A DNA stretch of 44,150 nt from a virus (IMGVR_UViG_3300005758_000043); one strand, 5' to 3'. Positions 15,952-44,150 are shown, counted from the stretch's first letter. The notes: generated by a model not told the origin, from the sequence alone. Numbers and translations: made by a program.

Positions 15952-16760
15952 ATCATATTAGAATGTTTTAGGATTTTAATTAATTGATTTTTATAAGGCT
16001 CAAATGGACGCATGCAATGTATATCGATATATTCATTATTTTTGAGTCTATTTAAATCATATTGGTAATCTCCATTGAAGGATGCTCGATCAATCCTATG
16101 ACCATTTCCACATGGAGAATCCATATAAGAGAAACCCTTGAACTTTAAATTATGGTTTAATATTTTATTCCTAATTAATTCTGATGAATAATTTTCTTCA
16201 GCACACCAATAATATTGATCTTGATTTAAAAAACTATTACCCTTCCACAGATTAAATCCTAAACCATATTTTTGCTGATCTACAATAAATTTAACTTCTT
16301 CTTCAATAGAAGACATTCTATTATATACTTGAGTGAAAAGACTGCCTTTTGCAATGTGATAGTGCGCTGGCAAATCACCTCCATCGCTCCATCTTTTTGC
16401 CCCGCATCCTTCGCAGTTCATATGTAAATAATAATCGTCGCTGACATTAGAAATGGAATCGGTTATCCATGCCTTTTGCAAAAAAAACATGTCTATATCT
16501 CCAAGAAACCAAGTAGTATCCTCTTCAAGAGATGGGTAGAAAAATTTAGACCAAGTAATTTGCAATACCTTTGGCAAAGATTGATCGAATTTTTTTTCTA
16601 TAATATCTCCATATTTATCGGACATGTTTGTTTTTTTAACATCTCCATATAAAATACATATAGGATCAATATTAAATTTTTCCTTAAGAATTTGTGATTG
16701 CAAATTCCAAAAATCGCTGTATTCTTCCGAAGTAGAAAATATTGCTTTTTGTATTTTCAT
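15948..16760 (-). CDS. putative glycosyltransferase-like protein
   Basis: DxD-type FLGDIDMFFL. The start is taken at ATG 16760, which forms an ATGA overlap with the upstream stop. The gene lies in the sugar-modification cluster. Confidence 0.5.
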   Translation of the reverse strand: MKIQKAIFSTSEEYSDFWNLQSQILKEKFNIDPICILYGDVKKTNMSDKYGDIIEKKFDQSLPKVLQITWSKFFYPSLEEDTTWFLGDIDMFFLQKAWITDSISNVSDDYYLHMNCEGCGAKRWSDGGDLPAHYHIAKGSLFTQVYNRMSSIEEEVKFIVDQQKYGLGFNLWKGNSFLNQDQYYWCAEENYSSELIRNKILNHNLKFKGFSYMDSPCGNGHRIDRASFNGDYQYDLNRLKNNEYIDIHCMRPFEPYKNQLIKILKHSNMI

Positions 16761-17299
16761 TTTGAGATTTGTATATAAAACGATGGGCAACCATCTTTTG
16801 CAATATATTTAATTTTTTGATTAAACTTTTCGCAAAATATTTTAACAGCATATTCTACTTGGTAATGGTAATCATGACCCATAATAATGCCACCATTTTT
16901 TATTTTTTCGTAAGATAAGCATAGGTCATCATATACAGCTTGAGCGGTATGATCGCCATCGATATAAATAGCATCAAAAAAATTATTCTCACAACTTAAT
17001 AAAAAAGACACAGATTTAGATCTGACAATATGAATTGATGGATCATCTTTATATTGTTGGTATAAATTTAAATAAATAGCTTCCATATCATCAATCTCAT
17101 AATGATTATTGCCATCTTTATCTCCCGATCCATACTTTCCAGTCCAAATATCAACTAAGTATAAATTTTTTGGATTGCATCTAGAAATAATTTCTCTTGA
17201 GAAATCTCCAACAAACACTCCAATTTCTAATATATTAGAATTTTTTGGCACCAGATCTAAAAGATCTGTTCTTGTATCGTAATAAACAATTTCGCTCAT
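16757..17299 (-). CDS. class I SAM-dependent methyltransferase (Methyltransf_24-like)
   Basis: ILEIGVFVGDFS, LYLVDIW, FDAIYIDGDHT and GGIIMGHDY. Confidence 0.85.
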   Translation of the reverse strand: MSEIVYYDTRTDLLDLVPKNSNILEIGVFVGDFSREIISRCNPKNLYLVDIWTGKYGSGDKDGNNHYEIDDMEAIYLNLYQQYKDDPSIHIVRSKSVSFLLSCENNFFDAIYIDGDHTAQAVYDDLCLSYEKIKNGGIIMGHDYHYQVEYAVKIFCEKFNQKIKYIAKDGCPSFYIQISK

Positions 17300-18785: not shown

Positions 18786-19754
18786 TTAAAGATCTATTTC
18801 TTCAACAAAATCTTCAACTTTTTCCAAATCTTGCCATCTTGCGAAGATTTCGGATTGATCAATAAATGAAGAATCGTCCCAATCCCAATCCATTCCGTCA
18901 TCATCGCTTAAAAGAAAGTCTTCTGAAGCCATGGAAGAAACTGGTTTTTTACTCCAGAATTTGCAACTCCAGTAGCGAGCTTTCCACTTAGGCCCAACAT
19001 TTGTATCGCATTGATGTCTTGCTCTAAAGCTTTTTCTTCTTTCTGGATCGTCGCGGCGAATCTCCATATTTGGATCACCAAATTTAACCATTACAATATT
19101 GCCTTTATCGTTTTTGACATAGACTCCAAATTTTTTATTTGATCCACTAGGCAATCTAAAAGGTTTATTGAGCGTCTTTTTTTCAGCTTCAGAATAATCA
19201 ATATCAAACAAGTCAATATCGCCTTCTTCTTCTAAATTGACATTTGCTTTGATAAGATCAATCCTTGCAATATCAAAATCAATCGAGTCGAATTGCCAAA
19301 ATACATCTTCCGCTTTTTGCTCGTAATAAAGTTCTGATCCAGAAGCGACATCTTGATCTGCCGCTCTATAAGAATCTTTTACTTTATCGCCGCGCATCAT
19401 CTTCAAAAACATATTTACGCGAGCCATCGCCCAACTATTTCTGCTTTGACCTGGTCTATGAGAAGAAGAAAAAGCCCCCAAGCCTCTACGATAAACTTTT
19501 TTCAATTGAGACAAGGAGACTTTTTTATCGTATTTTTCATTATGGGATTTTACTTTTTCTTGAAGAGAGCTTACGATTTTTTCATTAAACTCAATTTTTC
19601 CGCCGTCTTCTCCAGCAGATCCTTTTCGGTTTTTATCTGAACCTGTTTTTTGATCAGATTTAGGAGCAGGAGTCTGCGCTCCACTCTTAGGTCCAGGTCT
19701 ATTAGCAGAAGACTCAAATAAATTTTTAATTTTATCAGAAAAATCCAATTCCAT
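18786..19754 (-). CDS. two-module basic/acidic viral protein (DUF5824-like plus DUF6321/DUF5754-like modules)
   Basis: LKKVYRRGLGAFSSSHRPGQSRNSWAMARVNMFL and KKFGVYVKN..VKFGDPNMEIRRDDPERRKSFRARHQC..ARYWSCKFW, motifs recalled from large-virus proteins. The tail is acidic. Confidence 0.55.
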   Translation of the reverse strand: MELDFSDKIKNLFESSANRPGPKSGAQTPAPKSDQKTGSDKNRKGSAGEDGGKIEFNEKIVSSLQEKVKSHNEKYDKKVSLSQLKKVYRRGLGAFSSSHRPGQSRNSWAMARVNMFLKMMRGDKVKDSYRAADQDVASGSELYYEQKAEDVFWQFDSIDFDIARIDLIKANVNLEEEGDIDLFDIDYSEAEKKTLNKPFRLPSGSNKKFGVYVKNDKGNIVMVKFGDPNMEIRRDDPERRKSFRARHQCDTNVGPKWKARYWSCKFWSKKPVSSMASEDFLLSDDDGMDWDWDDSSFIDQSEIFARWQDLEKVEDFVEEIDL

Positions 19755-26165: not shown

Positions 26166-26567
26166 ATGCCAATATATATTTATCACAATTTAGAAACCGA
26201 CGAATATCGAGAAGTCTTTCAATCTATGAAAGAAAAACATGAATATTTTGGAGAAAATGGTGATGAAAAAAATTGGAAAAGAGTATTCACGGTTCCGCAG
26301 GCTTCTATCGACTCTGTTATTGATCCATTTAGTTCTCAGCAATTTACAGATAAAACTTATAATAAAAAGGGAACTTATGGCGATCTAATTGATAGAAGCG
26401 CGGAGCTTAGTGCAAAAAGGTCAGAAACAGCAGGAGGTATTGATCCAGTAAAAGAAAAGTATTTCGAAAACTATTCGAAAGCAAGAAAAGGCGCAAAACA
26501 TCCTGATCAGTTCAAAAAGAAATTTGAAAATCAACATGTTTCTGTTGACTTCACTGCAAAAAATTAA
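26166..26567 (+). CDS. FmdB-like small regulatory protein lacking the zinc-ribbon cysteines
   Basis: The N-terminus MPIYIYHNLETDEYREVF..WKRVF follows the MP-x-Y-x-Y ribbon pattern without CxxC pairs. Confidence 0.5.
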   Translation: MPIYIYHNLETDEYREVFQSMKEKHEYFGENGDEKNWKRVFTVPQASIDSVIDPFSSQQFTDKTYNKKGTYGDLIDRSAELSAKRSETAGGIDPVKEKYFENYSKARKGAKHPDQFKKKFENQHVSVDFTAKN

Positions 26568-27736
26568 AACGCTGGAGCAAATGCGCCCATAATCGAAAAT
26601 GGCTCGTAATATGCTCCACTCGTTGAGAGTTCTCGTTTCATAAAAAATCCTCCAGTCTCATTTGCGGCAAATGAATAAGTAGCATTGAATTGCATTATCC
26701 CATTTGTCTGCATCGAGTAGCTGGAGGATTCTAGTTTTGCATTTTCAATCTTATAAAAACCAGATTGTGATTTAGTTTGATCGGCAAATGATACTTCTAA
26801 AGAATATCCGCTTTCATTTCCAAGCAAAGATTGTATATTGCCAACTGCTAATCCAGAAACTAAACAAGAAATCTGCACTTGTCCATTGTTTGGAAAAAGA
26901 AGTTTTCTATCAAATATATAATTACTTCCTAGTCCATAAAGAGGAACTCTGGCCAAATCCAAATCTAAAGAAAAAGATTGTAGCAATGGATTTGCGCTTG
27001 GATCTAAATTAACTCCTCCTATTTGCAAATTCTGAAGAGAAAAAGTGCTTGCACTAGATAATGCTACAGGTGCATTATATTCGTTTCTTGATTCTGGATT
27101 ATTTTTTATATATGTTCCTGTTATAGTTTGATATAACTGTGAAAGATCTAAATTGCCCGATCCGCTATTATTTCCAGAAATGCTATTGATCGCTGGTATT
27201 GGCATTTTGTTGCCAGTTAAAGATTCACATCTTACATTTGAAGCTGAAAAACCAACAGATACCGCTGGAATCTGCCCTATTGCAAATGCAACAGAATATT
27301 TTGTAAGATAACAATTTCCAAAATTCATTGCATTGTATCCACTGAAATTTGAAGGTAAGTTTTTAGCAGCAGTGAAACCATCTTGACCAGCTTCTGTATT
27401 AATCAATAAATATATGTTATTATTTTTACCTTGCAGATTTGATAATGCTGGTTCATAACTATCTCCAGAACCTTTTAATCCGAAAAGCAACTCATTGCTT
27501 AAATAAGGAGTTAAATAGTAACTCATTGATAACTCAACTTCTGGAGCTTTTACAATATCATTTACAGCATAGTCTTGACTGCCAATTTGCTTGATTTTTT
27601 GTCTATCGCTTGTGATAGAGCAATCGGTGCTTTGCACAAGAGAAAGTAATCGCGCCGAATCTTGTCCAGTAGTCCAAGATGGAGAATCGCCAATCAATGC
27701 GAATGTTGAGTTGCTTTTTATGACTATTTTTTTCAT
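26564..27736 (-). CDS. tail-tube-fold paralogue (distal tail/tube initiator candidate)
   Basis: It shares motifs with 42962..44068 (LVQS..R..I.Q.G; NCYLTKYSVAFAIGQIPAVSV; LQSFSL.L.R.PLY.LG) and lies downstream of the tape measure gene. Confidence 0.6.
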   Translation of the reverse strand: MKKIVIKSNSTFALIGDSPSWTTGQDSARLLSLVQSTDCSITSDRQKIKQIGSQDYAVNDIVKAPEVELSMSYYLTPYLSNELLFGLKGSGDSYEPALSNLQGKNNNIYLLINTEAGQDGFTAAKNLPSNFSGYNAMNFGNCYLTKYSVAFAIGQIPAVSVGFSASNVRCESLTGNKMPIPAINSISGNNSGSGNLDLSQLYQTITGTYIKNNPESRNEYNAPVALSSASTFSLQNLQIGGVNLDPSANPLLQSFSLDLDLARVPLYGLGSNYIFDRKLLFPNNGQVQISCLVSGLAVGNIQSLLGNESGYSLEVSFADQTKSQSGFYKIENAKLESSSYSMQTNGIMQFNATYSFAANETGGFFMKRELSTSGAYYEPFSIMGAFAPAF

Positions 27737-29466: not shown

Positions 29467-32400
29467 TTACATTCCTCTTCTTAATTGCCCGCCGAGTCTC
29501 TTTTCTTCTTGGATGACCTTGAGAACTGCGTCTCTGATCTGTCTAGCGAGTTGTTGCTTCCCTTCTGAGCCATTACCGTCAGAAGTCTCAGAAGACTTGC
29601 CAGAGCCGCCTTCTACGTTAATTGTGATGTTTCCAGCAGAACCAGATGCTTCAATCAATTCATCAAGTTTGGAAATCAAACGATCATTCAATTCTTCGCT
29701 CTTTTCTTCTGTTGGAAGAGACTTTGCTCCGCTGTTCAACGCTTGAAGATTTCCGCTACCGATATTTTGTGCAGCAGCACGATTCATGATGAACTCTCCA
29801 CCAGAAAGCATTGTTGATACCGTGTCGATGCCTGATGTTGAAGGAATTGGTCCACCTGTAGCTCTATACTTTTCAAATGCCATTCCATTAACATCACCAA
29901 CAATTTTTGCGCGAGGAGTGAATGCTGTATCGCTAAATATATTAGATAGACCTCCAGATCCGTTATATCCACTCCATACTCCATTTATTCCAGAACCAAT
30001 GGATGACATATATCCTTGCCCTAAATTTTGAGCTTGAGTATATCCATTATTAAAACCAGTTACCGCAGACTTAACCAAAGAACCACCAACAACAGAAATA
30101 CCAAGCATCAATAATTGATTTCTCAAAGCTTTTGATTGCTCCTTTTGTTTCTTTTGCTCTTCTTTTTTGGCTTCATAATCTCTCAAATACAAAGAGAAAG
30201 CTTCTCCCTTTGCAGAGCGCAATGCTTCCGCCGCTGGGCTATTCTGTCTTCCAAAATTTGTCAATCTTGCGCTTTCAGCTTCCAAATTAATAGAAGCATA
30301 ATTTCCGCTATTGATAATTTCATCTCTTTTGCCTGTAGTATAAGATTGTGTAGCAAAACCTAACAAGTTTTTAGAACCAGAGATCGCTCCTAATCCATAT
30401 TGACCTGGTGTATAGAAATTGCCTTGTGGGCCTTTTTGAACTGGTCCACCTTTTGCATATCCGCTTATAGATCCACTATTAAGAGCATTCAAGAAATCTG
30501 GTCCATACTTTTGAACAGCTTTTTTGTTCATAACAAATTCACCGCCCATAAGCATAGCTGGAACATCGTCCTTATTTCCAGAGCCTCCAACGATTGCTCC
30601 TCCAGAAGCCCTGAACAATGAAGAGAAACTTGGAATCAAATTACCCAAACCACCTACAGCTTTATCAACTAAATTGCCAATGATTTTTTGATTGATTCCT
30701 TTAACAAATTCGTATGCGGCAGCTTTTAAAGCATCTCCTAGCGATGCAGTTCCCTCGATTGCTGAATTGATGGCATTTGCCATTCCACTCGCAAACATAG
30801 CAGGAATTTCTTGCCCAAGTTTAGATTCAAATTCTTGGACGCTCTTATTCAATTCGCGAAATGCATTTGTCATCCCCTCTTTGAAAGATCCTGGTTGTGC
30901 CTGTGCTGTTTGAATATCGAACTTTGTTTTTAAAGTTTTACCACTTTCAAATTGGGTTGCTTTTATATTTCTGAGTCCTTCTGCGGCTTTAGTCAATTCT
31001 GTAGCTTTTTCTATTGCAGCATCTCCAGTATATCCAATAGCTTCGGCAGCTTTTTGAGCAGCTTCGCTGAGATCTCCCGACATCATAGACAATTTCTGAA
31101 CTTCGGCCCATGCTTTATCAGGGCTTTTTTCCCAATTTTTTGTATAGAATGTTTCTCCATTAATGGTTTTTGATAATCCCATTTCAGGTTGCAAATTCTT
31201 TTCCAATTGCGATCCTGCTTGCACATTGTGAGTGTATGGAGAATTGATATTTGGATTATTAAAAAGATCTTTAAATTGTTTTTCTGTAAGTGGATTTGTT
31301 TGTGCAAACCTTCCTGGATTTTTAAGTGGTTCATAATATTTTGCATTTTTTGCTACACTATCAACACTTTGTCCATACATAGATGCTCTATTGAAAACAG
31401 TCGATAAAAATGCCGCTTGCGCATCTTGAGATTGACCGCCAACTTCAGAGGCAATTAATTTGCGCAAATGCGCTGTATCCACTCCAGTCAAGTCTCTATT
31501 TTGCATTGGAGTGTTTGCTGGTGATTCAGCAACTTCTTTTGCTAAAGCATCATATAACTTTTGTAAAGCTTCTGTATTTGCAGCCAATTGTTTCGTATTC
31601 TCCAAAGTCATTTGCTCTGTTTTAAATTGAATTTCTGCTTCTTTTGCCGCTTTTTCAAATTCAAGTTGTTGAGTTTTATCAAAGAATTCTTTTTCAATCT
31701 GCTGTTGCTTGTTAAGGTATTCTTGAGGATCGGTTATTCCCGCAAAGTTTTTTGGATTTTGTAATTCAAAATCTTTTTGCATGCTAAGTCTTTCAATACG
31801 GCCCGAAAGAGCAATGTTTTCTCTTTGTTTTTCGGCCATTGATCCAGTGAATGATAACAATAATTTATTGAATTGCTTTTCTAAATCTTTTGATGCATTA
31901 AGGAATGCTGGATTTAACTGTTCTAACTTGCTTATCATTTCTTCCGTAGCAAGAGAAGCTTCGTTCATTGCCGAACCAATTTGCGCTGTGGATTGAGAAA
32001 AATTAGACTGCTCTAATTGCGCTCTAGATTTTCTATAGTCTTCTTCAATATCTGGAGCATTTTTTATGCTCATCATTTGTTTTAAAGAATCTTCGGCTCC
32101 AGGGACACCTTGTTCCGCTAAAGTTTTAAGATTACTTATTTGATTTTCTATAAAATCTGTTTGTGAAGATCCGCTTTTTAAATAATCTGCTGATGCAATT
32201 ATTTTTTTGTAAAAATAGTCTGCGGAATCGACAACTAATTTCTGCGAACTAAAAGCTGCATCTAATTTTATAATTGCAGCATTTTTTTCAGCTTCAGCAA
32301 TATCTTTTCCTAAATTTGCGAGTTCATTAATAGAACTTGCTTTCTCAATTTTAGACACAAGCCCTTGTCCAAGATTTTTTTCAAGAGCATTAGATAATAA

Positions 32401-35400
32401 ATCTTTTTGAAGATTTCTAAAAATTGTTTGCTGTTGATTTTGAGCTTTTAATACAACAGAAGATCTTTCTTTTTTATTAATTAAGACATCAATATTATCT
32501 TGCATTCCTTTCGGAGCAATAGATTTTAATTGTTCTGCTCTATTTTTAAAGCTATCATCTCTTATATTTAATAACTTTTCTTCATATGAAAGCTCCTCTT
32601 TGAGCAAATCAATATTTTGTAATCTAAAATTTCTTTCGTTATTCAAAGCAGAATTCTTAGCTTCAACAATAGCAGTTGTTTTTTTGGTTAAATCTTCTTG
32701 TATTTTCGTTAATTTGATTTGATCAGCAATTGAATTTAATTGGCTGTCTAATAAATTTAAAATCTTTTTATAAGCTTCTCCTTCTCCAAATATAGATTTT
32801 AATTGATCTTCTAAAGAATTTTTAATTTGAGAATTATAGCCTTGTTGTTGAATGATTTGTTCGGTTATTGAATCCACTAATCCACGAATTTTTTCAAAGC
32901 TCTTCTCGTTTATTTTTCCAGCAATAGCTTCTCCAACAGCGTTTTTGATAGCTTCTTGACTTCTTAAAAAATCTGCTGCTGCACCCGCTTGTTGCTTAAC
33001 TAGTTCAATAGAACTTTTTCTAGCAGATAATTCACGATCAATTGATATTTTTCTCGCATCTGTTGTATTAATTAATTCTTTTTCTATAGATAGTAATAAA
33101 TCTTGTTGGCTATTAATATCTAATAAAGCTAATTTATATTTGATAGCATTATCTAATTTTTGCTCTGCTAATTGTAAATTAATAAGATTAACTGATTCTT
33201 GTATTTTAGCTTCTTTTGTAGTATCTTGAAAAATATCTAAAAGTTTTTTTGCTAATTCTTGTTTTTTTCCAGCATCATTAAGATTTCCAGATTCAGCGAT
33301 TGATTTTCGAGCTTCATCTATTTTCTTTTTTAATTCTGGATTTCCTGCTATATTTGTATTTACAGAAGCAAATAAATCATTAATGAATGGATCTAATTCG
33401 ATTCCTTTTAATCCTGCCGAAACAGCTTTTTCATATTTTTGTCTAGATTCTTCACTTGATAACTTATCAACCAAATCTGTTTCAAAAGCAGTTAGAGCTT
33501 TAAATTGCAAATCGCTAAATCCTTTGTAAACATCTTCAGAAGATAATTTAGCGGTGCCAGATTCTAGATTAGTAGTTCCAACTGTATATTTCTTTTGAAG
33601 CGCTGTCGGGCCTCCCACATTATATTGTTCTTGTAATTGAGCTTCAGATATTGAAGCTTGTCGTGCTAAAAATTCTTTATTATTTTTAAATGTAGCGAAT
33701 TCGAATTGTTGAGCATTTGCTTTTGCAGCATATTCAGCTTGGGATGCATCGCTAGAAATTTTATATTTATCTCTTAATTGCTTTTTTTCGCCTTCTGTCA
33801 TATAGGTAGCCATGAAACTACCTAATGCACTTTCTCCAGTATTAAACTGTCCTTTTCCGAATCCTTCGATCTTGCTACTAGTTATTTTAGATAATGATTT
33901 TGCAGCCGCTTCAGCTTCTGTATCAATAATGTTAAGCGCTCTAGCAAAACCTGTTCCTAGATCCATGAGCCATCCAGCCAAATCTTTTCCAAATATTTTT
34001 CCAATTGCATTTACAGCTTGAAATGCTGTTATAACTTGCCCTATAACTGGAAGCATTTTTCCAAACAATGGTCCTATTTTAGTAATAGCTCCTAAAGTCC
34101 CTCCTGCGACTTTACCTACTACCCCTGTTTTAGAAGCTGCATTTGCAAGTTTGCTTGTTATCATTCCTCCACCAGAAGAAGAAATTGCTGATGCTGCATC
34201 AGCTAAATCTGCCGCTGATGCCCCAGATTTTCTTGCTGTATTGAAATTTTCTAAAGAGTTTTGAAGTTCAGACTTAGGCTCTTTTCTCATTTGCCTGCCC
34301 ATTTTGGTGAATTCATTGAAACTCAAAACTCCAAAACTTACATCATTTAATCCTTGAGCTAATTTTTGCCCAGATTCTCCAAGCTCAGAAAACACTCCAG
34401 TTAATGCTGAAGCTACAGACTGAAATAAGAAAACCTTACCAACAAAATCTGCTGCGCTTTTATTATCTGAGTCTGTTGTTTGAGATAATCCTTGATTATT
34501 TAATTTTTTAGCTGCTAAAGCTTCTCTTTTTGCTTTAGCTTCTTGAGCCGCAATTTCTCTTGCTTGCTTTATAGATTCCGCTTGTTTTTTAGATTCATCA
34601 GCAACCTTTTTTGAAACATCAGTGCTATTACCCAAAGCTACTAATGCAGCCTCTAGTTTTTTAGATAGCTTATCCATATTGCCACCAGCCGCAATAGCTT
34701 TTTTTCCAAATTCATTAATAGCTTTTTCAACATCAGATCCAAACTTTGTGCCACCTCCTAATGAACTTGCCACTTGACCAGCGATTTCTGGAATTTTTGC
34801 AGCATAATTCGGCACAAATCCACTAGCCGCACCATAAGTCTTTGGATTACGCCCTTCTTTGATTGCACGGCTAACACCTTGATGCCCACCCATTGGTTCA
34901 TCACGACGATTAGCGACCATCAAACCCATTGGGTTTGCCGCGTTCTTGAGCGAAGGACTCTTATCAATATAGATCTGCGAAGAAGGAACTCCAGCCGCCA
35001 TTTCGCGGCTAATTGCCTGCTTGAGAGGATCAGCAAAATTAGGTAAGAATCCTCTCGCTGCATATTTCGAAGTTAAGCCCCCAATACCAGAAAATAGTGT
35101 TCGTTGGAATTCTTTTTTTGGCATTTCAGTTACAAACTTCTTTAACTCTTCAATGGTTTCGAAATCATTACCACCAAAAGAACCTGATGTTACAAGATTT
35201 GGAATCTGTCTATATTTAAGTTGAGGGAAACTATAAATCAACTCGTCCCAATTACTCATTTTATTAAAATCAATAGGCTTTTTTGATCTTGAGATTTTTC
35301 TCTCTTTTTGAGAAACGAGTTGATCACTAAGAATAGGTAATTTTGTTCTTTTTGATAATTTTGCTAATTGTAAAAATAATTTATAAGCGTCTCCTTTCTT

Positions 35401-38400
35401 TTTTGAAGTTATATAGTCAATTTTTAAGGATTTTTCATCCATAAAATCATCTACTTCAAAATCTAAAGTGCTGCCTTTTTCAGTCTTGTATCGTCTGTAT
35501 AGCGATCCATAATTATCTTCTACCCAAAAGCTTTTTTGTGCAAAGTTTGGAATAAAACCATTTGCGGCTGTTTTTTGTTGAGTTTGTTTTATGAGAATTT
35601 TGCCTATTATATCTCTCGCAATACCAGAAACTTTAGCGGCCCCAGGATCAAGAATTCCAATTTTTGCGCCAGCAGCAGCCATACTCCTCAAAGTAGCAAA
35701 TGCGCCAACAGCATTTTGAGGATAATTTCTCAATTGATCTATTTGATTTTCAGCATTTTTGTTTACTGTATAGTTTGAGCCGTGTAGATCTTCTATGCTC
35801 AAACCTCTAGCTCCAAGTGCGCTAAATAAAACTCTTCTTCCAAAAGATTCAGAAACCTGCGATCCTAATGCGGTTTTTGCCAAAGGATCAGATATGACTT
35901 CTTTTCTAATAGATAGTTTTCTTTTTGAATCTTCAAGGCTAGATAAATTTTTAGGTCCAAATATGCTTGGAATATTTGCATATTTATTTATAAATTCAGA
36001 AACGAGCCATTCGAACTCTACTGCTTTACTAGGTCCATCCTTAAAAAATTTCTTGACGCCAACTTGAGTTCCATCTTTTTCTCCAAGTCTATAAAATGCG
36101 CCCTGCACTCCTCTTCCTATTTCTCTCGATTTAGAAACATAATTGGGAATATAGCCTGATGCTTTATTTTCTAGTTTGGGCGTTTTTATTTCGCCCATCT
36201 GAATTGCATTCTTGATTTTAGTATCAAATGAATTTATATTGTCATTATTTAAAGCGTTTTTGAAATCTAAAGCTTTAACTCTATTTAAAACATTGCTTAA
36301 ATGACTATTTGGTTGTAAACCATTGGCGCTCCCAAAAGATGCCGCAAATCCTTTAATTGATCCTTCTCCAAGAATATCAAAATTCGCATTTGATTTTTTA
36401 CTTTGAATTCCAGAGGCAGCTTGCAAGGCTGTTTCAAAAACATTTCCAACAGCACTCTGTAAAGTTCCTTCGTTGAGCGTTTTATTAGCAATATCTAAGA
36501 ATTTTTGGTCATCAACTACATCTGGATTTATTCCTATATTTTTTACATAATTTCTAGATGTGTTTATGAAAGATTGTCGTAATTCTTTATATAGAAAATC
36601 ATCAGGATGAGAAACAACAGATGCAATCTTAATAATATTACCGCCTTTAGTTGTTGCAAAACCTGTTTTTTGTTTAGAAGATGGATATAATAACGCAATA
36701 TTAGATGAATAATCTCCTTGCATTAATTTAATAGACTCTTCTTCTTTTATTCTTCTTTGGAGAGATTTTTCTCCGCTAGATCTCCAGTTTAGATAAGCCT
36801 CGCGAACAGTTTCGTCTCCTAAACTTGAGTATGGATTTTTTTTATCATTTATATTTAAATTTGGGTTATCATTAATAAAAGCATTCCATTCGCCCTTAAC
36901 TGTTTTACCAGATAGTCCAACACGATCTACAAATAAATCCCTTGATGCTGCTGCAAAATTAGGAATCAATCCCCCTGCCGCTCCAATTTTTTTAGCTCCA
37001 GCAGGAAGACCCATTTTTTTAACCATATCTCGGTTGAAAATAGCTGTGCCACCACTTCCTGCGAAATTAGGAATTGCATATTCTCCTGTATGAGCAACAA
37101 TAGATCCTTTTTTGCCGCCGCCAAAATTGAAGTTCGGAATAACCACAGGCTTGTCGCCTGATCTTGCTCCACCAACACCTCTGCTAATGTCAGAGCTTTC
37201 TTTAGCTAACGCTGGCATATATCCAGCCGCCGCATTCTTTTCTGGCACTCTAAGACCTTGCCCTGTCGCTCTTATCCCTAATCCATATGAAGGGCTAGCT
37301 AAATCTTTAGAAATAGCAGCACTTCTTCTGATTACGGCTTCTTGTTGAATTAAAGCATCAGTAATAACTTTTAATTGACCTGCTCTGTTTCCTTCTAATG
37401 AAAATAGTTTTTGCTGCAAACCGATATTAGTAGCTAATGCTGTATTGATTGCTTTTTCAACATCTGCAATATCTTTTGCAGCTTTTCCAATTCCGAAGAA
37501 ACCTTTTAAACTTGAGAAGCCGAATTGAACCAGATCCTTAGATAGTTTAACAATAATAGCTCCAAATAAAGCTAAACCTGGTCCACTAATCAAGTTTCCA
37601 ATTCCTTTAACTAATCCGCGAACAAATCCACCCATCGCACTTTCTTCGCCCAAGATATTTTGGATACTATCCAATAAACCTCCAAAGAAATTAAGCAAAT
37701 CTCTTAAATTATCAGTAATTCCAATTTTGCCTAATGTAGCTCCCAATTGTTCGGCGCTAATAGAAACTTTATTAATGATTGCTGAAAGTGTTTCATTTAA
37801 TGCGGCATTCTTTTTATAAGCTTCTGAAGTCGCTCCTTGAGATAGTTTAACAATATCAGCATATTTTGATTGTTCGCTTCCCAAATCTTTAACAGCGGCA
37901 AGTAAGTTAGACAATTGATAAACACCACCAAGTTTTTTGGAAATATCTGCTTGTTTAGTTTGGCTTAATCCTTGAAATTCCTTAGCTAAATTTTGGAGAA
38001 TTTCTGTTGCTGGTAAAATTTTTCCAGCAGTATCTACCACTTGGATTCCTAAGTTATCAAGATCTTCTAAAGCTCCTTTATCTTGGATCTTGGAGAAAAT
38101 TGTTTTAAAAGCGTTACCAATAACAGCACCACCACGCGCAGTTCTTTCTTGAACTGTTGTAATAATACCTACAAGCTCATCAAATGAAACTCCAGCTTGA
38201 TCAGCAACAGAAGCGGAACGTTTGATACCTTCGATAAGATCTCGTTCAGAAACAGCGTATTGCTGAGAAACAACAACCAATTTATTCAAAATCTGGGAGC
38301 TTGTAATCCCAGCATCTGCAAATGAATTGATAGCAGCAGTCAAACCTTCAACAGATTGTTGCGCATCCAGCCCAGAAAGTCTTGATAAGATAAGAGCATC

Positions 38401-38865
38401 ATTGAGTCTTTTTAAAACTTTTTGTGCATCTAAACCTTGTCTGGAAAGTTCCAAAGCTCCTTCTGCAACTGTTTCAAATGATTGGCCTGTAGATTTAGCC
38501 AAGTTGAAAAGATTATTGCCAAATTTATCAAGCTCGCTAGAACTTTGTTTCAAGTTGATATTAATATCGGTTAAAGCTTTTTCTGTGGCAATTGTATTTT
38601 TTACCAATGCTTGAAAAGCTTTAGATACGCCATTAATAACACCAACTGAAGCTCCGAAAGCGAATACACGCGCATTCGCGGCTTCCATAGATTTCGTGAA
38701 CTCGTCTGCTTGCCCAGTAATTCTTCCTAATGGTTGTGCCAACGCATTGATTTGTCGGCTATTGGTTCCCAAATTGATCTGAGCATTACGTCCAGCAGTT
38801 TTTAACGCTTGTTGAATACTTTGCTCTAATCCTACTTGAGTTACTGGTAACTGAATTGATTGCAT
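29467..38865 (-). CDS. giant tape measure protein (3132 aa) with embedded enzyme-like domains
   Basis: N-terminal TP901-type core (LFNLAKSTGQSFETVAEGALELSRQG..GNAFKTIFS), long coiled-coil/Ala-Gly helical tracts, two C-terminal A-x-GG..D-x-V-x-x-ML-x-GGEF repeats, and its position in the tail module. SD-like AAGGA upstream. Confidence 0.9.
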   Translation of the reverse strand: MQSIQLPVTQVGLEQSIQQALKTAGRNAQINLGTNSRQINALAQPLGRITGQADEFTKSMEAANARVFAFGASVGVINGVSKAFQALVKNTIATEKALTDININLKQSSSELDKFGNNLFNLAKSTGQSFETVAEGALELSRQGLDAQKVLKRLNDALILSRLSGLDAQQSVEGLTAAINSFADAGITSSQILNKLVVVSQQYAVSERDLIEGIKRSASVADQAGVSFDELVGIITTVQERTARGGAVIGNAFKTIFSKIQDKGALEDLDNLGIQVVDTAGKILPATEILQNLAKEFQGLSQTKQADISKKLGGVYQLSNLLAAVKDLGSEQSKYADIVKLSQGATSEAYKKNAALNETLSAIINKVSISAEQLGATLGKIGITDNLRDLLNFFGGLLDSIQNILGEESAMGGFVRGLVKGIGNLISGPGLALFGAIIVKLSKDLVQFGFSSLKGFFGIGKAAKDIADVEKAINTALATNIGLQQKLFSLEGNRAGQLKVITDALIQQEAVIRRSAAISKDLASPSYGLGIRATGQGLRVPEKNAAAGYMPALAKESSDISRGVGGARSGDKPVVIPNFNFGGGKKGSIVAHTGEYAIPNFAGSGGTAIFNRDMVKKMGLPAGAKKIGAAGGLIPNFAAASRDLFVDRVGLSGKTVKGEWNAFINDNPNLNINDKKNPYSSLGDETVREAYLNWRSSGEKSLQRRIKEEESIKLMQGDYSSNIALLYPSSKQKTGFATTKGGNIIKIASVVSHPDDFLYKELRQSFINTSRNYVKNIGINPDVVDDQKFLDIANKTLNEGTLQSAVGNVFETALQAASGIQSKKSNANFDILGEGSIKGFAASFGSANGLQPNSHLSNVLNRVKALDFKNALNNDNINSFDTKIKNAIQMGEIKTPKLENKASGYIPNYVSKSREIGRGVQGAFYRLGEKDGTQVGVKKFFKDGPSKAVEFEWLVSEFINKYANIPSIFGPKNLSSLEDSKRKLSIRKEVISDPLAKTALGSQVSESFGRRVLFSALGARGLSIEDLHGSNYTVNKNAENQIDQLRNYPQNAVGAFATLRSMAAAGAKIGILDPGAAKVSGIARDIIGKILIKQTQQKTAANGFIPNFAQKSFWVEDNYGSLYRRYKTEKGSTLDFEVDDFMDEKSLKIDYITSKKKGDAYKLFLQLAKLSKRTKLPILSDQLVSQKERKISRSKKPIDFNKMSNWDELIYSFPQLKYRQIPNLVTSGSFGGNDFETIEELKKFVTEMPKKEFQRTLFSGIGGLTSKYAARGFLPNFADPLKQAISREMAAGVPSSQIYIDKSPSLKNAANPMGLMVANRRDEPMGGHQGVSRAIKEGRNPKTYGAASGFVPNYAAKIPEIAGQVASSLGGGTKFGSDVEKAINEFGKKAIAAGGNMDKLSKKLEAALVALGNSTDVSKKVADESKKQAESIKQAREIAAQEAKAKREALAAKKLNNQGLSQTTDSDNKSAADFVGKVFLFQSVASALTGVFSELGESGQKLAQGLNDVSFGVLSFNEFTKMGRQMRKEPKSELQNSLENFNTARKSGASAADLADAASAISSSGGGMITSKLANAASKTGVVGKVAGGTLGAITKIGPLFGKMLPVIGQVITAFQAVNAIGKIFGKDLAGWLMDLGTGFARALNIIDTEAEAAAKSLSKITSSKIEGFGKGQFNTGESALGSFMATYMTEGEKKQLRDKYKISSDASQAEYAAKANAQQFEFATFKNNKEFLARQASISEAQLQEQYNVGGPTALQKKYTVGTTNLESGTAKLSSEDVYKGFSDLQFKALTAFETDLVDKLSSEESRQKYEKAVSAGLKGIELDPFINDLFASVNTNIAGNPELKKKIDEARKSIAESGNLNDAGKKQELAKKLLDIFQDTTKEAKIQESVNLINLQLAEQKLDNAIKYKLALLDINSQQDLLLSIEKELINTTDARKISIDRELSARKSSIELVKQQAGAAADFLRSQEAIKNAVGEAIAGKINEKSFEKIRGLVDSITEQIIQQQGYNSQIKNSLEDQLKSIFGEGEAYKKILNLLDSQLNSIADQIKLTKIQEDLTKKTTAIVEAKNSALNNERNFRLQNIDLLKEELSYEEKLLNIRDDSFKNRAEQLKSIAPKGMQDNIDVLINKKERSSVVLKAQNQQQTIFRNLQKDLLSNALEKNLGQGLVSKIEKASSINELANLGKDIAEAEKNAAIIKLDAAFSSQKLVVDSADYFYKKIIASADYLKSGSSQTDFIENQISNLKTLAEQGVPGAEDSLKQMMSIKNAPDIEEDYRKSRAQLEQSNFSQSTAQIGSAMNEASLATEEMISKLEQLNPAFLNASKDLEKQFNKLLLSFTGSMAEKQRENIALSGRIERLSMQKDFELQNPKNFAGITDPQEYLNKQQQIEKEFFDKTQQLEFEKAAKEAEIQFKTEQMTLENTKQLAANTEALQKLYDALAKEVAESPANTPMQNRDLTGVDTAHLRKLIASEVGGQSQDAQAAFLSTVFNRASMYGQSVDSVAKNAKYYEPLKNPGRFAQTNPLTEKQFKDLFNNPNINSPYTHNVQAGSQLEKNLQPEMGLSKTINGETFYTKNWEKSPDKAWAEVQKLSMMSGDLSEAAQKAAEAIGYTGDAAIEKATELTKAAEGLRNIKATQFESGKTLKTKFDIQTAQAQPGSFKEGMTNAFRELNKSVQEFESKLGQEIPAMFASGMANAINSAIEGTASLGDALKAAAYEFVKGINQKIIGNLVDKAVGGLGNLIPSFSSLFRASGGAIVGGSGNKDDVPAMLMGGEFVMNKKAVQKYGPDFLNALNSGSISGYAKGGPVQKGPQGNFYTPGQYGLGAISGSKNLLGFATQSYTTGKRDEIINSGNYASINLEAESARLTNFGRQNSPAAEALRSAKGEAFSLYLRDYEAKKEEQKKQKEQSKALRNQLLMLGISVVGGSLVKSAVTGFNNGYTQAQNLGQGYMSSIGSGINGVWSGYNGSGGLSNIFSDTAFTPRAKIVGDVNGMAFEKYRATGGPIPSTSGIDTVSTMLSGGEFIMNRAAAQNIGSGNLQALNSGAKSLPTEEKSEELNDRLISKLDELIEASGSAGNITINVEGGSGKSSETSDGNGSEGKQQLARQIRDAVLKVIQEEKRLGGQLRRGM
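34798..37234 (-). repeat. six copies of the A-x-G-[FYL]-[ILVM]-P-N-[FY]-A-like peptide linker inside the tape measure gene
   Basis: AAAGYMPALA (~37201-37234), AAGGLIPNFAA (~36948-36982), ASGYIPNYVS (~36133-36162), AANGFIPNFAQ (~35537-35569), AARGFLPNFAD (~35029-35062) and AASGFVPNYAA (~34798-34830). Confidence 0.85.
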
Positions 38866-42910: not shown

Positions 42911-42961
42911 AAATTTCACTTTTTTTGAATTAAGTTGTAAAGACAGTAAACATAAAAATTT

Positions 42962-44068
42962 ATGGCACGAAACAGAGTAATTTATCAATCTGAAGGTCTT
43001 TATGTAAGTAAAGAATACAATTCTACTGGCAGTGGAGATCACTTCCAACTCAAGAGAGTTCAATCCGCTAATTACAATTTCAACATTGCTCGTCAAGATG
43101 TTAACCAATATGGGCAACTTGCTCGTATCGACTCTATTGTTCTTGAGACTCCAACTGTTGGTCTTGATTTTACCTATTATGTAACTGATGGTAAAAACGA
43201 AAGAGCGCTTGGTTTCTACGTTCAAACTGGTGGCGCATCTTCTGGACAATTCCCATCTGGTCACGTTCAAGACGGAACAGGCCGCAATTTCTATATTGTT
43301 ACCACTTCCGAAGGTTCTGACCTTAATGCTGAAGCAAATCTTAGCGGAAAGTCAGCAATTGGAGTTGGTAATGCATATTTGACTAATTATACTCTTGATC
43401 TTGCTGTTGGTAGTATTCCTACTGCATCTGTAAGTTTCGAAGGTTCTAATATGAACGCTTTCAATATTGCAGCGGGCAATAGCGGTTCTGGCGCAGGCGT
43501 TGTTCCTCAATCTGGAACATCTATTGGTCTTGGAGTTATTTTGCCAAATTCTGCTAACCAAACTGGAGCGGCTGTTGACGGCACAATTTCGGCTCTTCGA
43601 CCTGGTGACGTAACTGTTTCTTTCGGTGGGTTCACTGGAACTGGTGTTGGAGGATTTACTTCTCTTACTGATTTGCACATTCAAAGCGCAAGCCTTGCTC
43701 TTCCTCTTGGAAGAACTCCAATTCAACAACTTGGCACCAAGTTCGCGTTTGCAAGAACAGTTGACTTCCCAATTGTTTCTACTCTTACCCTTAATGGTAT
43801 TCAATCTGAAACTTCTCAAGGAAGCTTGATTGATCTCGTTCAAAATAATCCAAAGAATGATATCACCATTAGCGTTAAGCAACCTGGAACAAATAATGTC
43901 GCTATTACTTATACCATTACTAACGCTCAGTTAGACTCAGTTGGTTTCTCAAGCTCTATCGGTTCCAATAAGACTGTTGACTTGACATTCTCAACTCAAA
44001 TTGGTGGTGCTAACGATGCTGTTAACGGTATTAGAGTAAGCGGTTCTTATACAGGAAGCCCTTTTTAA
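42962..44068 (+). CDS. major tail tube protein
   Basis: A Gly/Ser/Thr-rich beta protein with internally duplicated halves (RVQSANY..RQDVNQYG; HIQSASL..RTPIQQLG). It has two paralogues next to the tape measure gene and sits in a typical neck-tube gene order. Confidence 0.7.
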   Translation: MARNRVIYQSEGLYVSKEYNSTGSGDHFQLKRVQSANYNFNIARQDVNQYGQLARIDSIVLETPTVGLDFTYYVTDGKNERALGFYVQTGGASSGQFPSGHVQDGTGRNFYIVTTSEGSDLNAEANLSGKSAIGVGNAYLTNYTLDLAVGSIPTASVSFEGSNMNAFNIAAGNSGSGAGVVPQSGTSIGLGVILPNSANQTGAAVDGTISALRPGDVTVSFGGFTGTGVGGFTSLTDLHIQSASLALPLGRTPIQQLGTKFAFARTVDFPIVSTLTLNGIQSETSQGSLIDLVQNNPKNDITISVKQPGTNNVAITYTITNAQLDSVGFSSSIGSNKTVDLTFSTQIGGANDAVNGIRVSGSYTGSPF

Positions 44069-44136
44069 TTAGCCCCTCTGAACCAAGTTTTTATGCTGAA
44101 TTTGGTATTTATGGAGCTTTTGCTCCGTCAGTTTAA
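44059..44136 (+). other. candidate -1 ribosomal frameshift site and hidden C-terminal extension of the tube protein
   Basis: The heptamer C-CCT-TTT (44059-44065) directly precedes TAA. The -1 frame reads LISPSEPSFYAEFGIYGAFAPSV* to 44136 and resembles the C-terminus of the 390-aa paralogue. Confidence 0.7.
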
Positions 44137-44150
44137 ATAAATATATAAGG

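What the first reader, a model, noticed from the sequence alone, without database searches (positions are those of the whole stretch)
44059..44136. Hidden -1 frameshift extension on the major tail tube protein that reproduces the GAFAP C-terminus of its paralogue
Seen in sequence: the tube gene ends AGC CCT TTT TAA, which gives a perfect X-XXY-YYZ heptamer (C CCT TTT). A -1 slip adds LISPSEPSFYAEFGIYGAFAPSV*. The 390-aa tube paralogue at 26564..27736 natively ends ..SGAYYEPFSIMGAFAPAF*. The last 16 residues align with 8 identities (Y, F, I, GAFAP), which is unlikely for non-coding DNA. Established: programmed frameshifts give C-terminally extended major tail proteins in several phages (e.g. 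SPP1, PSA, A2), usually adding Ig-like domains. Inference: a minority of tube subunits display a short GAFAP peptide, a possible docking tag for a decoration/fibre protein or a modification signal. The ORF track misses this.
Basis: partly seen in the sequence, partly recalled or inferred. Interest (0 to 1): 0.82.

Follow-up and report, generated by a model that had tools for sequence, protein, structure and literature searches.

The report
Frameshift-added docking tag on tail tube
An uncultured freshwater phage very probably lets a few ribosomes slip back one base at the last codon of its tail-tube gene, which adds a conserved ~20-residue tag that always comes with one particular neighbouring gene, a likely way to hang a small number of accessory proteins on the tail.

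Summary
The tube gene (42962..44068) ends AGC CCT TTT TAA. The -1 frame from 44065 encodes a 23-residue peptide that ends like the paralogue at 26564..27736.

Twelve distinct relatives (52-100% tube identity, independent metagenomes, one complete 134-kb genome) keep the -1 ORF. Their length differences are whole codons, and pN/pS is mostly 0.13-0.6. All have T_TTT at the last Phe codon, 0-1 codon before the stop. None of 98 relatives without the ORF has T_TTT there.

Only U_UUU is conserved, not the full heptamer, and no conserved RNA structure follows the site.

The tube protein has a T5 pb6/p140-like tandem tube fold.

New here: tag, terminator and a 323-aa gene just past the window form a ~1.2-kb cassette gained or lost at least five times (11/11 against 0/73). 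Tag type tracks that gene's subgroup. The unlinked paralogue carries the same tag type only in cassette-bearing genomes.

Best reading: a programmed -1 "shifty-stop" frameshift makes a minor tagged tube isoform, and the tag probably docks the cassette protein. Frameshifting and binding are both inferred; neither has been shown.

This is a new variant of known 3'-terminal frameshifts in phage structural genes. An unpublished note of this scan describes a similar tag in an Enterococcus phage.

The parts
42962..44068 (+). Major tail tube protein gene (368 aa, P0002), T5 pb6/p140-like tandem-duplicated tube fold
   Evidence: ORF. AF2 model pLDDT 73.6, pTM 0.76. Foldseek hits 8xan_A, T5 p140 7qg9_G, T5 pb6 7qg9_A/5ngj, DT57C and P74-26 tube at E 1e-10 to 1e-6. 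More than 3591 homologues, all ending at the same point.
44059..44068 (+). Shift site: C CCT TTT followed by TAA. The conserved core is T_TTT (44062-44065), read by tRNA-Phe, with the 0-frame stop in the next codon
   Evidence: T_TTT is present in all 12 distinct extension-bearing relatives and in 0 of 98 relatives without the extension. Only 7.4% of other Phe codons in these genes are T_TTT. In L098 and L105 a -1-frame stop 3 codons upstream confines the shift to the 4-5 codons that hold CCT TTT.
44065..44136 (+). -1 frame extension: 23 codons plus stop. SPSEP linker followed by the hydrophobic C-terminal motif F-x-I-Y-G-A-F-A-P
   Evidence: Translation. Conserved in L010, L013, L011, L132, L098, L017, L104, L105, L018, L019 and G013. 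Indels are all whole codons, and pN/pS is mostly 0.13-0.6 with synonymous sites near saturation.
44147..44150 (+). Start of a 12-bp-stem intrinsic terminator hairpin that runs past the window end (record 89324-89351). It lies after the extension, not after the 0-frame stop
   Evidence: In relatives without the extension the terminator follows the 0-frame stop directly.
26564..27736 (-). Tube-fold paralogue (390 aa, P0001). It is the last gene of the tape-measure operon and is p140-like by position
   Evidence: BLASTP against P0002 gives E 4e-20. It follows the tape measure gene (PF10145) and a double gpM-like gene (PF05939).
26567..26614 (-). Native in-frame C-terminal tail of the paralogue (AYYEPFSIMGAFAPAF), the same tag type as the -1 extension but with different codons
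   Evidence: Family members carry either this class A tail, a Trp-rich class B tail, or none.

Best explanation
The tail tube gene is recoded at its very end. With tRNA-Phe on the last sense codon UUU and the UAA stop (in three relatives a sense codon, then the stop) in the A site, a minority of ribosomes slip back one base onto the overlapping U_UUU. They then read UUA and 22 more codons. The product is a minor tube isoform with a flexible SPSEP-type linker and a hydrophobic C-terminal strand, F-x-[IV]-[VY]-G-A-[FL]. T5 pb6 carries its outward-facing Ig domain at the same terminus, so the tag should be displayed on the outside of the tube. The tag belongs to a ~1.2-kb cassette made of the last tube codons, the tag, a terminator hairpin and a 323-aa gene (record 89393-90364, just past the window). 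The tag most likely recruits that gene's product, which has conserved N- and C-terminal parts and a hypervariable middle. Frameshift efficiency would then set how many copies sit on the tail. In some phages, including this one, the same tag is fused in frame to the p140-like distal ring protein, so all three of its copies carry it. Shown: the ORF, its conservation and coding signature, slip-site conservation, the cassette structure, co-occurrence and co-variation. Inferred: that frameshifting occurs, that it is ribosomal and of low efficiency, that the tag is surface exposed, and that it binds the 323-aa protein.
For: (1) The -1 ORF is kept in 12 distinct sequences from independent metagenomes, with tube identity 52-100%. 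No in-frame version exists among 120 homologous proteins or 177 loci. (2) Coding signature: extension lengths are 18-27 codons and all differences are whole codons. GGN, GCN and TTY vary synonymously within the conserved motif, and pN/pS is mostly 0.13-0.6. (3) T_TTT occurs at the last Phe in 12/12 against 0/98, with a background of 7.4%. The shift window is pinned to 4-5 codons in L098 and L105. (4) The terminator lies after the extension in ext+ loci and directly after the stop in ext- loci. (5) The extension and the 323-aa gene co-occur: 11/11 ext+ and 0/73 ext- among distinct tube sequences with a judgeable flank, 5 of 5 independent tree pairs are concordant, and at least 5-6 gains or losses are needed on the tube tree. 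Near-identical tube genes differ only by the cassette, and homology breaks about 10 nt before the stop and resumes after the 323-aa gene. (6) Tag type follows the subgroup of the 323-aa protein, including L132, whose tube is distant but whose cassette is window-like, and the intermediate L011. (7) The paralogue lies 16 kb away. It has the class A tail in 3 of 5 cassette-bearing genomes and in 0 of 13 cassette-free ones, and its tail subtype matches the tag of the same genome: GAFAP in both proteins here, TYISSFDIVGA in both in G001, GAFVP in both in the 140-kb contig. (8) In T5 the p140 C-terminus contacts the collar protein p132, and the pb6 C-terminal domain points outward (PMC10038345; PMC8718954).
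Against: There is no protein or RNA evidence. No RNA run holds the locus. No conserved stimulatory RNA structure or SD-like element was found, so efficiency may be very low. The canonical heptamer is present in only some relatives. Tag and 323-aa gene are physically adjacent, so their co-occurrence alone could be linkage. Two cassette-bearing genomes (G002, G013) have a class B-type tail on the paralogue, so the paralogue's tag is optional. The 323-aa protein has no recognisable family and folds poorly in silico.
Confidence: 0.6

Rival explanations
1. The frameshift tag is real but works inside the tail. It would act as a C-arm or staple that adds a strand to a neighbouring tube ring or to a special first or last ring. 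On this reading the 323-aa gene travels with it only because it is adjacent.
For: C-terminal arms that fold onto the next ring are known in 80alpha gp53 (PMC8718954). The 3132-aa tape measure implies a very long tail that might need reinforcement. Tag and gene are one physical cassette.
Against: Near-identical tube proteins do without the tag (L128 against L132). Tag type co-varies with the 323-aa protein and not with the tube. The unlinked paralogue has the tag only in genomes with the 323-aa gene.
Confidence: 0.15
2. The extended product is made by RNA polymerase slippage on the T run, which adds one U to some transcripts, and not by ribosomal slippage. The protein product would be identical.
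For: The run is T5 here and T6 in L132. One inserted U gives exactly the same protein.
Against: Three relatives have only T4 (CCT TTT followed by C or A). From general knowledge, that is far shorter than runs known to support efficient transcriptional slippage. The stop codon position 0-1 codon after the run fits a ribosomal 'shifty stop' (review PMC5009743).
Confidence: 0.1
3. The -1 ORF is not translated. It is either a decaying remnant of a former in-frame C-terminus, or a nucleotide-level element such as a leader or recombination junction for the downstream gene.
For: The block AGCCCYTCTGAA just after the stop is invariant at nucleotide level in 10 of the 11 aligned ext+ sequences (L011 differs), more than the peptide requires. 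No expression data exist.
Against: Synonymous sites are near saturation while the peptide motif, the frame and the stop position are kept. All indels are whole codons. The same peptide is encoded with different codons at the paralogue's in-frame end. The slip site is under selection.
Confidence: 0.07

Closest known systems
Listeria phages A118, A500 and PSA: 3'-terminal frameshifts in the major capsid (cps) and major tail (tsh) genes (reviewed in PMC5009743)
   Same: Recoding happens at the last codons of a major tail protein gene. The stop codon in the A site acts as stimulator (tsh: CCC_UGA). The result is a minor C-terminally extended structural isoform.
   Different: The Listeria tsh shift is +1 on a Pro codon; here it is -1 on U_UUU. 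The extension here is only 18-27 aa. It is shared with a paralogue and tied to a mobile downstream gene.
Phage T7 gene 10A/10B (and T3) capsid -1 frameshift (PMC5009743)
   Same: A -1 shift occurs just before the stop of a major structural gene, on a G_GUU_UUC-type site with imperfect P-site re-pairing (compare GTT TTT C in L018). It gives a minor longer isoform.
   Different: T7 recodes a capsid gene and not a tube gene. T7 adds about 50 residues with no known partner gene. T7 has a long-range 3' stimulator; none is evident here.
SPP1 gp17.1/gp17.1* and Lactobacillus phage A2 tail proteins (PMC8718954, PMC5009743)
   Same: A frameshift makes a sub-stoichiometric, outward-facing C-terminal addition on tube subunits (3:1 in SPP1).
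   Different: Those additions are complete FN3 or Ig-like domains that act themselves. Here the addition is a short peptide that is too small to fold and probably recruits a separate protein.
T5 p140 C-terminus contacting the p132 collar (PMC10038345)
   Same: A tandem-duplicated tube-fold paralogue in the tail-tip module uses its C-terminus to hold an accessory ring or fibre anchor.
   Different: T5 has no frameshift and no shared tag on the major tube protein, because pb6 carries an Ig domain instead. No relation between the 323-aa protein and p132 was tested; its only searches, against Pfam and PHROGs, gave no match.
Earlier notes of this scan on an Enterococcus phage (e1-1938892, e1-1968870): a frameshift-added ~21-aa tag proposed to complete a split FN3 domain of the next gene's protein
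   Same: A short -1 tag at the end of the tube gene, with the candidate partner encoded by the next gene downstream.
   Different: The host, tube family and tag sequence are unrelated. There the second tagged protein is the capsid; here it is a tube paralogue with the tag in frame. Split-domain complementation could not be tested here.

Membership tests
Programmed 3'-terminal -1 ribosomal frameshift ('shifty stop' type) | Slippery sequence that lets the tRNA re-pair in the -1 frame | tested here: met
   U_UUU in 12/12 ext+ sequences and in 0/98 ext-. The full X_XXY_YYZ is present in only a minority (window, L011/12/16, L104, G013).
Programmed 3'-terminal -1 ribosomal frameshift ('shifty stop' type) | Conserved -1 ORF under purifying selection, reachable only by a shift | tested here: met
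   pN/pS is mostly 0.13-0.6 and indels are whole codons. No start codon opens the ORF (an in-frame GTG occurs only 4-5 codons before its end in L017 and L105). -1-frame stops lie 3 codons upstream in L098 and L105.
Programmed 3'-terminal -1 ribosomal frameshift ('shifty stop' type) | Stimulator: slow A-site codon (stop), downstream structure or upstream SD-like element | tested here: inconclusive
   A stop codon follows directly in 9 of 12 and one codon later in 3. There is no conserved RNA structure (consensus -0.8 kcal/mol). Some relatives have GGAG upstream, but it is not conserved.
Programmed 3'-terminal -1 ribosomal frameshift ('shifty stop' type) | Both protein products detected | not testable with these tools
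   The phage is uncultured and no RNA run is listed.
T5 pb6/p140-type tandem-duplicated tail tube proteins | Two tube-fold beta-sandwich domains in one chain | tested here: met
   The AF2 model aligns over its full length with 7qg9_G (p140), 7qg9_A/5ngj (pb6), 8xan_A and 8ed0_A at E 1e-10 to 1e-6. Single-domain tube and Hcp proteins match only half of it.
T5 pb6/p140-type tandem-duplicated tail tube proteins | Trimeric (pseudo-hexameric) rings | not testable with these tools
   Inferred from the fold and from the double gpM-like neighbour.
T5 pb6/p140-type tandem-duplicated tail tube proteins | C-terminal Ig-like (Big_2) decoration domain as in pb6 | tested here: not met
   The protein ends right after the second tube domain and has no Pfam hit. 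In this respect it resembles p140, P74-26 and SH-Ab15497.
Frameshift-appended Ig-like/FN3 decoration domains (SPP1 gp17.1*, A2, T3) | The extension is a complete folded Ig-like domain | tested here: not met
   The extension is 18-27 residues: a Pro/Ser linker plus one hydrophobic strand.
Tag-and-partner docking (tag binds the product of the next gene) | Physical binding of the tag to the 323-aa protein | not testable with these tools
   Only co-occurrence and co-variation are shown.

The most novel reading that the evidence does not exclude
The tag plus the 323-aa gene is a portable 'tag-and-catcher' cassette. A ~20-residue C-terminal peptide is enough to recruit the accessory protein to any tube-fold ring. 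Its copy number on the long tail is set by the efficiency of a minimal U_UUU-stop frameshift. The same peptide has been grafted in frame onto the distal p140-like ring in some lineages. The cassette moves horizontally between phages whose tube proteins are only about 50% identical.
Probability: 0.4. Interest if true: 0.75.

Novelty: new variant of a known kind. Interest (0 to 1): 0.62.

Why it matters
Gene callers miss this isoform in an abundant family of uncultured freshwater and marine T5-like phages (more than 3,500 tube homologues). If confirmed, it would show three things.

- Recoding can be used to meter a short docking peptide, not only to append a whole decoration domain.
- The peptide and its likely partner gene spread together as a unit.
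- The same tag can be hard-wired onto a paralogous ring.

This gives a testable rule for how accessory or adhesin-like proteins are attached to non-contractile tails. It also offers a minimal natural tag and partner pair that could be used for phage display or tail engineering.

Tried and rejected
- **Complex prediction.** The 323-aa protein (alignment A2) was folded with the 32-residue -1 ORF (A3). The result was no verdict (ipSAE 0.00, 0.63, 0.00; controls not run). It is not evidence either way.
- **AF2 model of the 323-aa protein.** The model was poor (pLDDT 47), so no fold search was made on it. The Atlas look-up gave no usable hit.
- **Family searches.** Pfam and PHROGs gave nothing for the tube protein, the paralogue or the 323-aa protein. 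A PDB sequence profile search gave nothing. tblastn of the tube protein against the INPHARED phage collection found no match.
- **Profile search for fusions.** The 323-aa family was searched against 1.84 billion representatives, and 25 proteins matched. None is fused to a tube protein. One is a 1655-aa LapA-repeat adhesin with a weak match (E 6e-5) to the variable middle region; this is a hint only.
- **RNA and read data.** No RNA holder is listed for the locus, so transcript slippage could not be examined. The reads laid on the locus were contigs only.
- **Frameshift stimulator.** No conserved structure was found. The strong z-score of the window fold is due to the terminator.
- **Tag on the capsid or other genes.** None was found in the 93 kb available.
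- **More class A paralogue genomes.** The class A contigs L193, L221 and L222 are too short or wrongly placed to include the tube gene. L247 could not be extended. The P0126 look-up did not display the 140-kb contig.
- **Sequencing error or inactivating indel.** Rejected, because the T run and frame are the same in many independent assemblies.

Full report
**1. The observation.**
The ORF 42962..44068 (+, 368 aa, P0002) ends AGC CCT TTT TAA. The T run occupies 44062-44066. Reading from 44065, the last T of the Phe codon, gives LISPSEPSFYAEFGIYGAFAPSV and a stop at 44134-44136. The 390-aa ORF at 26564..27736 lies on the minus strand and ends AYYEPFSIMGAFAPAF.

The two proteins are paralogues (30% identity over 332 residues, E 4e-20). 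The window is part of a 93,140-nt IMG/VR record. In its six-frame translation G[AS]F[AVI]P occurs only twice, both times 2 residues before a stop, and these are the two sites in question. A looser motif adds only two random short ORFs. Contigs from three runs show the same T5 run.

**2. What the proteins are.**
Neither protein matches Pfam or PHROGs. An AF2 model of P0002 built from 45 homologues (pLDDT 73.6, pTM 0.76) matches tandem-duplicated tube proteins over its whole length. The hits are SH-Ab15497 major tail protein, T5 p140 (7qg9_G), T5 pb6 (7qg9_A, 5ngj), DT57C and the P74-26 tube, at E 1e-10 to 1e-6. Single-domain tube and Hcp proteins match only half of the model.

P0002 closes a four-gene plus-strand operon. 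The divergent minus-strand operon holds a 3132-aa tape measure (PF10145), a 263-aa gene, a double gpM-like gene (PF05939) and finally P0001. P0002 is therefore the major tube protein of a T5-like, presumably three-fold tail. P0001 is a p140-like ring protein of the tail-tip module.

**3. The -1 ORF is conserved and coding.**
The tube family is large: more than 3591 proteins. All of the 120 best end at the same place, and none carries an in-frame extension. I collected DNA for 177 relatives.

The -1 ORF is present in 11 distinct sequences besides the window's own. Examples are:
- L010: LISPSEPTTFDAFGVYGAFVPAS
- L011: LSSPFEAFDIVGAFVPAS
- L017: LSSPSEPSYISSFDIVGALI
- L018: a 27-residue version with a longer Pro-rich linker
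- L132: 52% tube identity
- the complete 133.8-kb genome G013

Extension lengths range from 18 to 27 codons, and every length difference is a whole number of codons. Within the invariant motif F-x-[IV]-[VY]-G-A-[FL], the Gly, Ala and Phe codons vary synonymously. pS is 0.3-0.9 while pN/pS is mostly 0.13-0.6. No start codon opens the ORF. The only in-frame GTG lies 4-5 codons before its end, in L017 and L105. In L098 and L105 a -1-frame stop lies 3 codons upstream of the slip point, so the shift must occur within the 4-5 codons that contain CCT TTT. A strong terminator hairpin follows the extension. In relatives without the extension the terminator follows the 0-frame stop directly.

**4. The signal.**
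All 12 extension-bearing sequences have T_TTT at the last Phe codon. It is CCT TTT in ten and GTT TTT in two. The 0-frame stop comes immediately after in nine and one codon later in three.

None of 98 relatives without the extension (at least 50% identity) has T_TTT in its last four codons. Elsewhere in the ext+ tube genes only 13 of 175 Phe codons (7.4%) are T_TTT.

What is conserved is re-pairing of tRNA-Phe on U_UUU next to a stop. This is a 'shifty stop' in the sense reviewed in PMC5009743. It is comparable to T7 gene 10 (G_GUU_UUC) and, with opposite sign, to the Listeria phage tsh genes (CCC_UGA).

RNAalifold finds no conserved structure after the site. T4 runs in three relatives make RNA polymerase slippage unlikely as the general mechanism.

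**5. The new finding: a cassette.**
Downstream of the terminator, just past the window end (record 89393-90364), lies a 323-aa gene (P0216). It has no Pfam or PHROG match and few relatives: 20 and 25 representatives among 1.84 billion. Its N-terminal 135 and C-terminal 70 residues are conserved, and the middle is hypervariable. Short forms of about 200-220 aa lack the middle.

Every locus with the extension has this gene. Every locus without the extension lacks it, with the convergent 159-aa gene serving as a positional control. Among distinct tube sequences the count is 11/11 against 0/73. Five of five independent tree pairs are concordant.

On the tube tree the trait needs at least 5-6 gains or losses, and near-identical tube proteins differ in it, for example L132 against L128. 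In four such pairs nucleotide homology stops about 10 nt before the tube stop codon and resumes after the 323-aa gene. The last tube codons with the slip site, the tag, the terminator and the gene therefore form one ~1.2-kb unit.

Tags fall into two types..F-G-[IV]-Y-G-A-F-[AV]-P.. and Y-[IV]-x-x-F-[DS]-I-V-G-A-[LF]. These types match the two subgroups of the 323-aa protein. This holds for L132, whose tube is distant but whose cassette is window-like, and for L011, which is intermediate in both.

**6. The paralogue gives evidence free of linkage.**
P0001 homologues end in one of three ways:
- a class A tail, the same motif as the tag
- a Trp-rich class B tail (W..I..LWQNI.VNW..)
- no tail

Pairing contigs gives the following counts. 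Class A occurs in 3 of 5 cassette-bearing genomes: this record, G001, and the 140-kb contig of L013. Class A occurs in 0 of 13 cassette-free genomes.

In each class A genome the paralogue's tail subtype equals the tag subtype. Both proteins have GAFAP here, TYISSFDIVGA in G001, and GAFVP in the 140-kb contig. The genes lie 16 kb apart, and in this record the codons of the shared motif differ. In T5 the p140 C-terminus contacts the collar protein p132, and the pb6 C-terminal domain points outward (PMC10038345; PMC8718954). A C-terminal tail on these rings is therefore well placed to hold an accessory protein.

**7. Interpretation.**
The best reading is a programmed, probably low-efficiency, -1 ribosomal frameshift at the last sense codon. 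It would give a minority of tube subunits an outward-facing docking tag for the cassette-encoded protein. In some phages the same tag is hard-wired on the distal ring.

The frameshift itself, its efficiency and the binding are all inferred. The rivals are an intra-tail staple function, transcriptional slippage, and an untranslated relic or nucleotide element. Each is less consistent with the co-variation data, the T4 sites and the coding signature respectively.

**8. Comparison and novelty.**
Frameshift-extended major tail and capsid proteins are known. Examples are SPP1 gp17.1*, A2, T3/T7, and Listeria A118, A500 and PSA (PMC8718954, PMC5009743).

This case differs in four ways:
- the tube family is a T5-like tandem fold
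- the signal is minimal, U_UUU plus a stop
- the product is a short tag rather than a folded Ig-like domain
- the tag is shared with a paralogue and coupled to a mobile partner gene

Notes from this scan describe a similar short tag with next-gene partner in an Enterococcus phage. I took that as a lead only. I rate the finding a new variant of a known kind.

Noticed in passing
window 26564-26614 and homologues (P0128-P0199, L194-L224): Most homologues of the p140-like paralogue end in a different, Trp-rich C-terminal module (W..I..LWQNI.VNW..L, 'class B') instead of the FDIVGAF-type tail. Close relatives (71-73% identity) can differ in class, so the C-terminal tail is a swappable module. The partner of class B is unknown.
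   Followed up: partly
window 44070-44081 and the same position in 9 relatives: The block AGCCCYTCTGAA (Ser-Pro-Ser-Glu) 4-6 nt after the slip site is invariant at nucleotide level in 10 of the 11 aligned ext+ sequences (L011 differs), although Ser has six codons. It could be a frameshift stimulator or a recombination junction of the cassette.
   Followed up: no
record C1:89393-90364 (= L014:2755-3726, just past the window end): The 323-aa cassette protein evolves much faster than the tube protein: 44-50% identity where the tube proteins are 85-90%. It has a hypervariable middle that is absent in ~200-220-aa forms. The middle weakly matches LapA adhesin repeats of a 1655-aa protein (E 6e-5).
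   Followed up: partly
record C1:12611-12688, 16608-16791, 18835-18911 (upstream of the window): The phage's 30-tRNA cluster includes tRNA-Phe(GAA), tRNA-Leu(UAA) and two tRNA-Pro(UGG). These are the tRNAs that read CCU, UUU and the first -1-frame codon UUA at the shift site (aragorn). This may be coincidence in a near-complete tRNA set.
   Followed up: no
window 29467-38865 (-): The tape measure protein has 3132 residues (PF10145 at residues 122-314). The usual ~0.15 nm per residue is general knowledge, not tested here. On that figure the tail would be several hundred nm long with a few hundred tube subunits, so even a 1-5% frameshift would give several tagged subunits per tail.
   Followed up: no
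window 42945-42961 and L014:2735-2754: The tube gene and the 323-aa gene have A/T-rich leaders without a Shine-Dalgarno-like sequence. This would fit a host that does not rely on SD, but the host was not identified.
   Followed up: no
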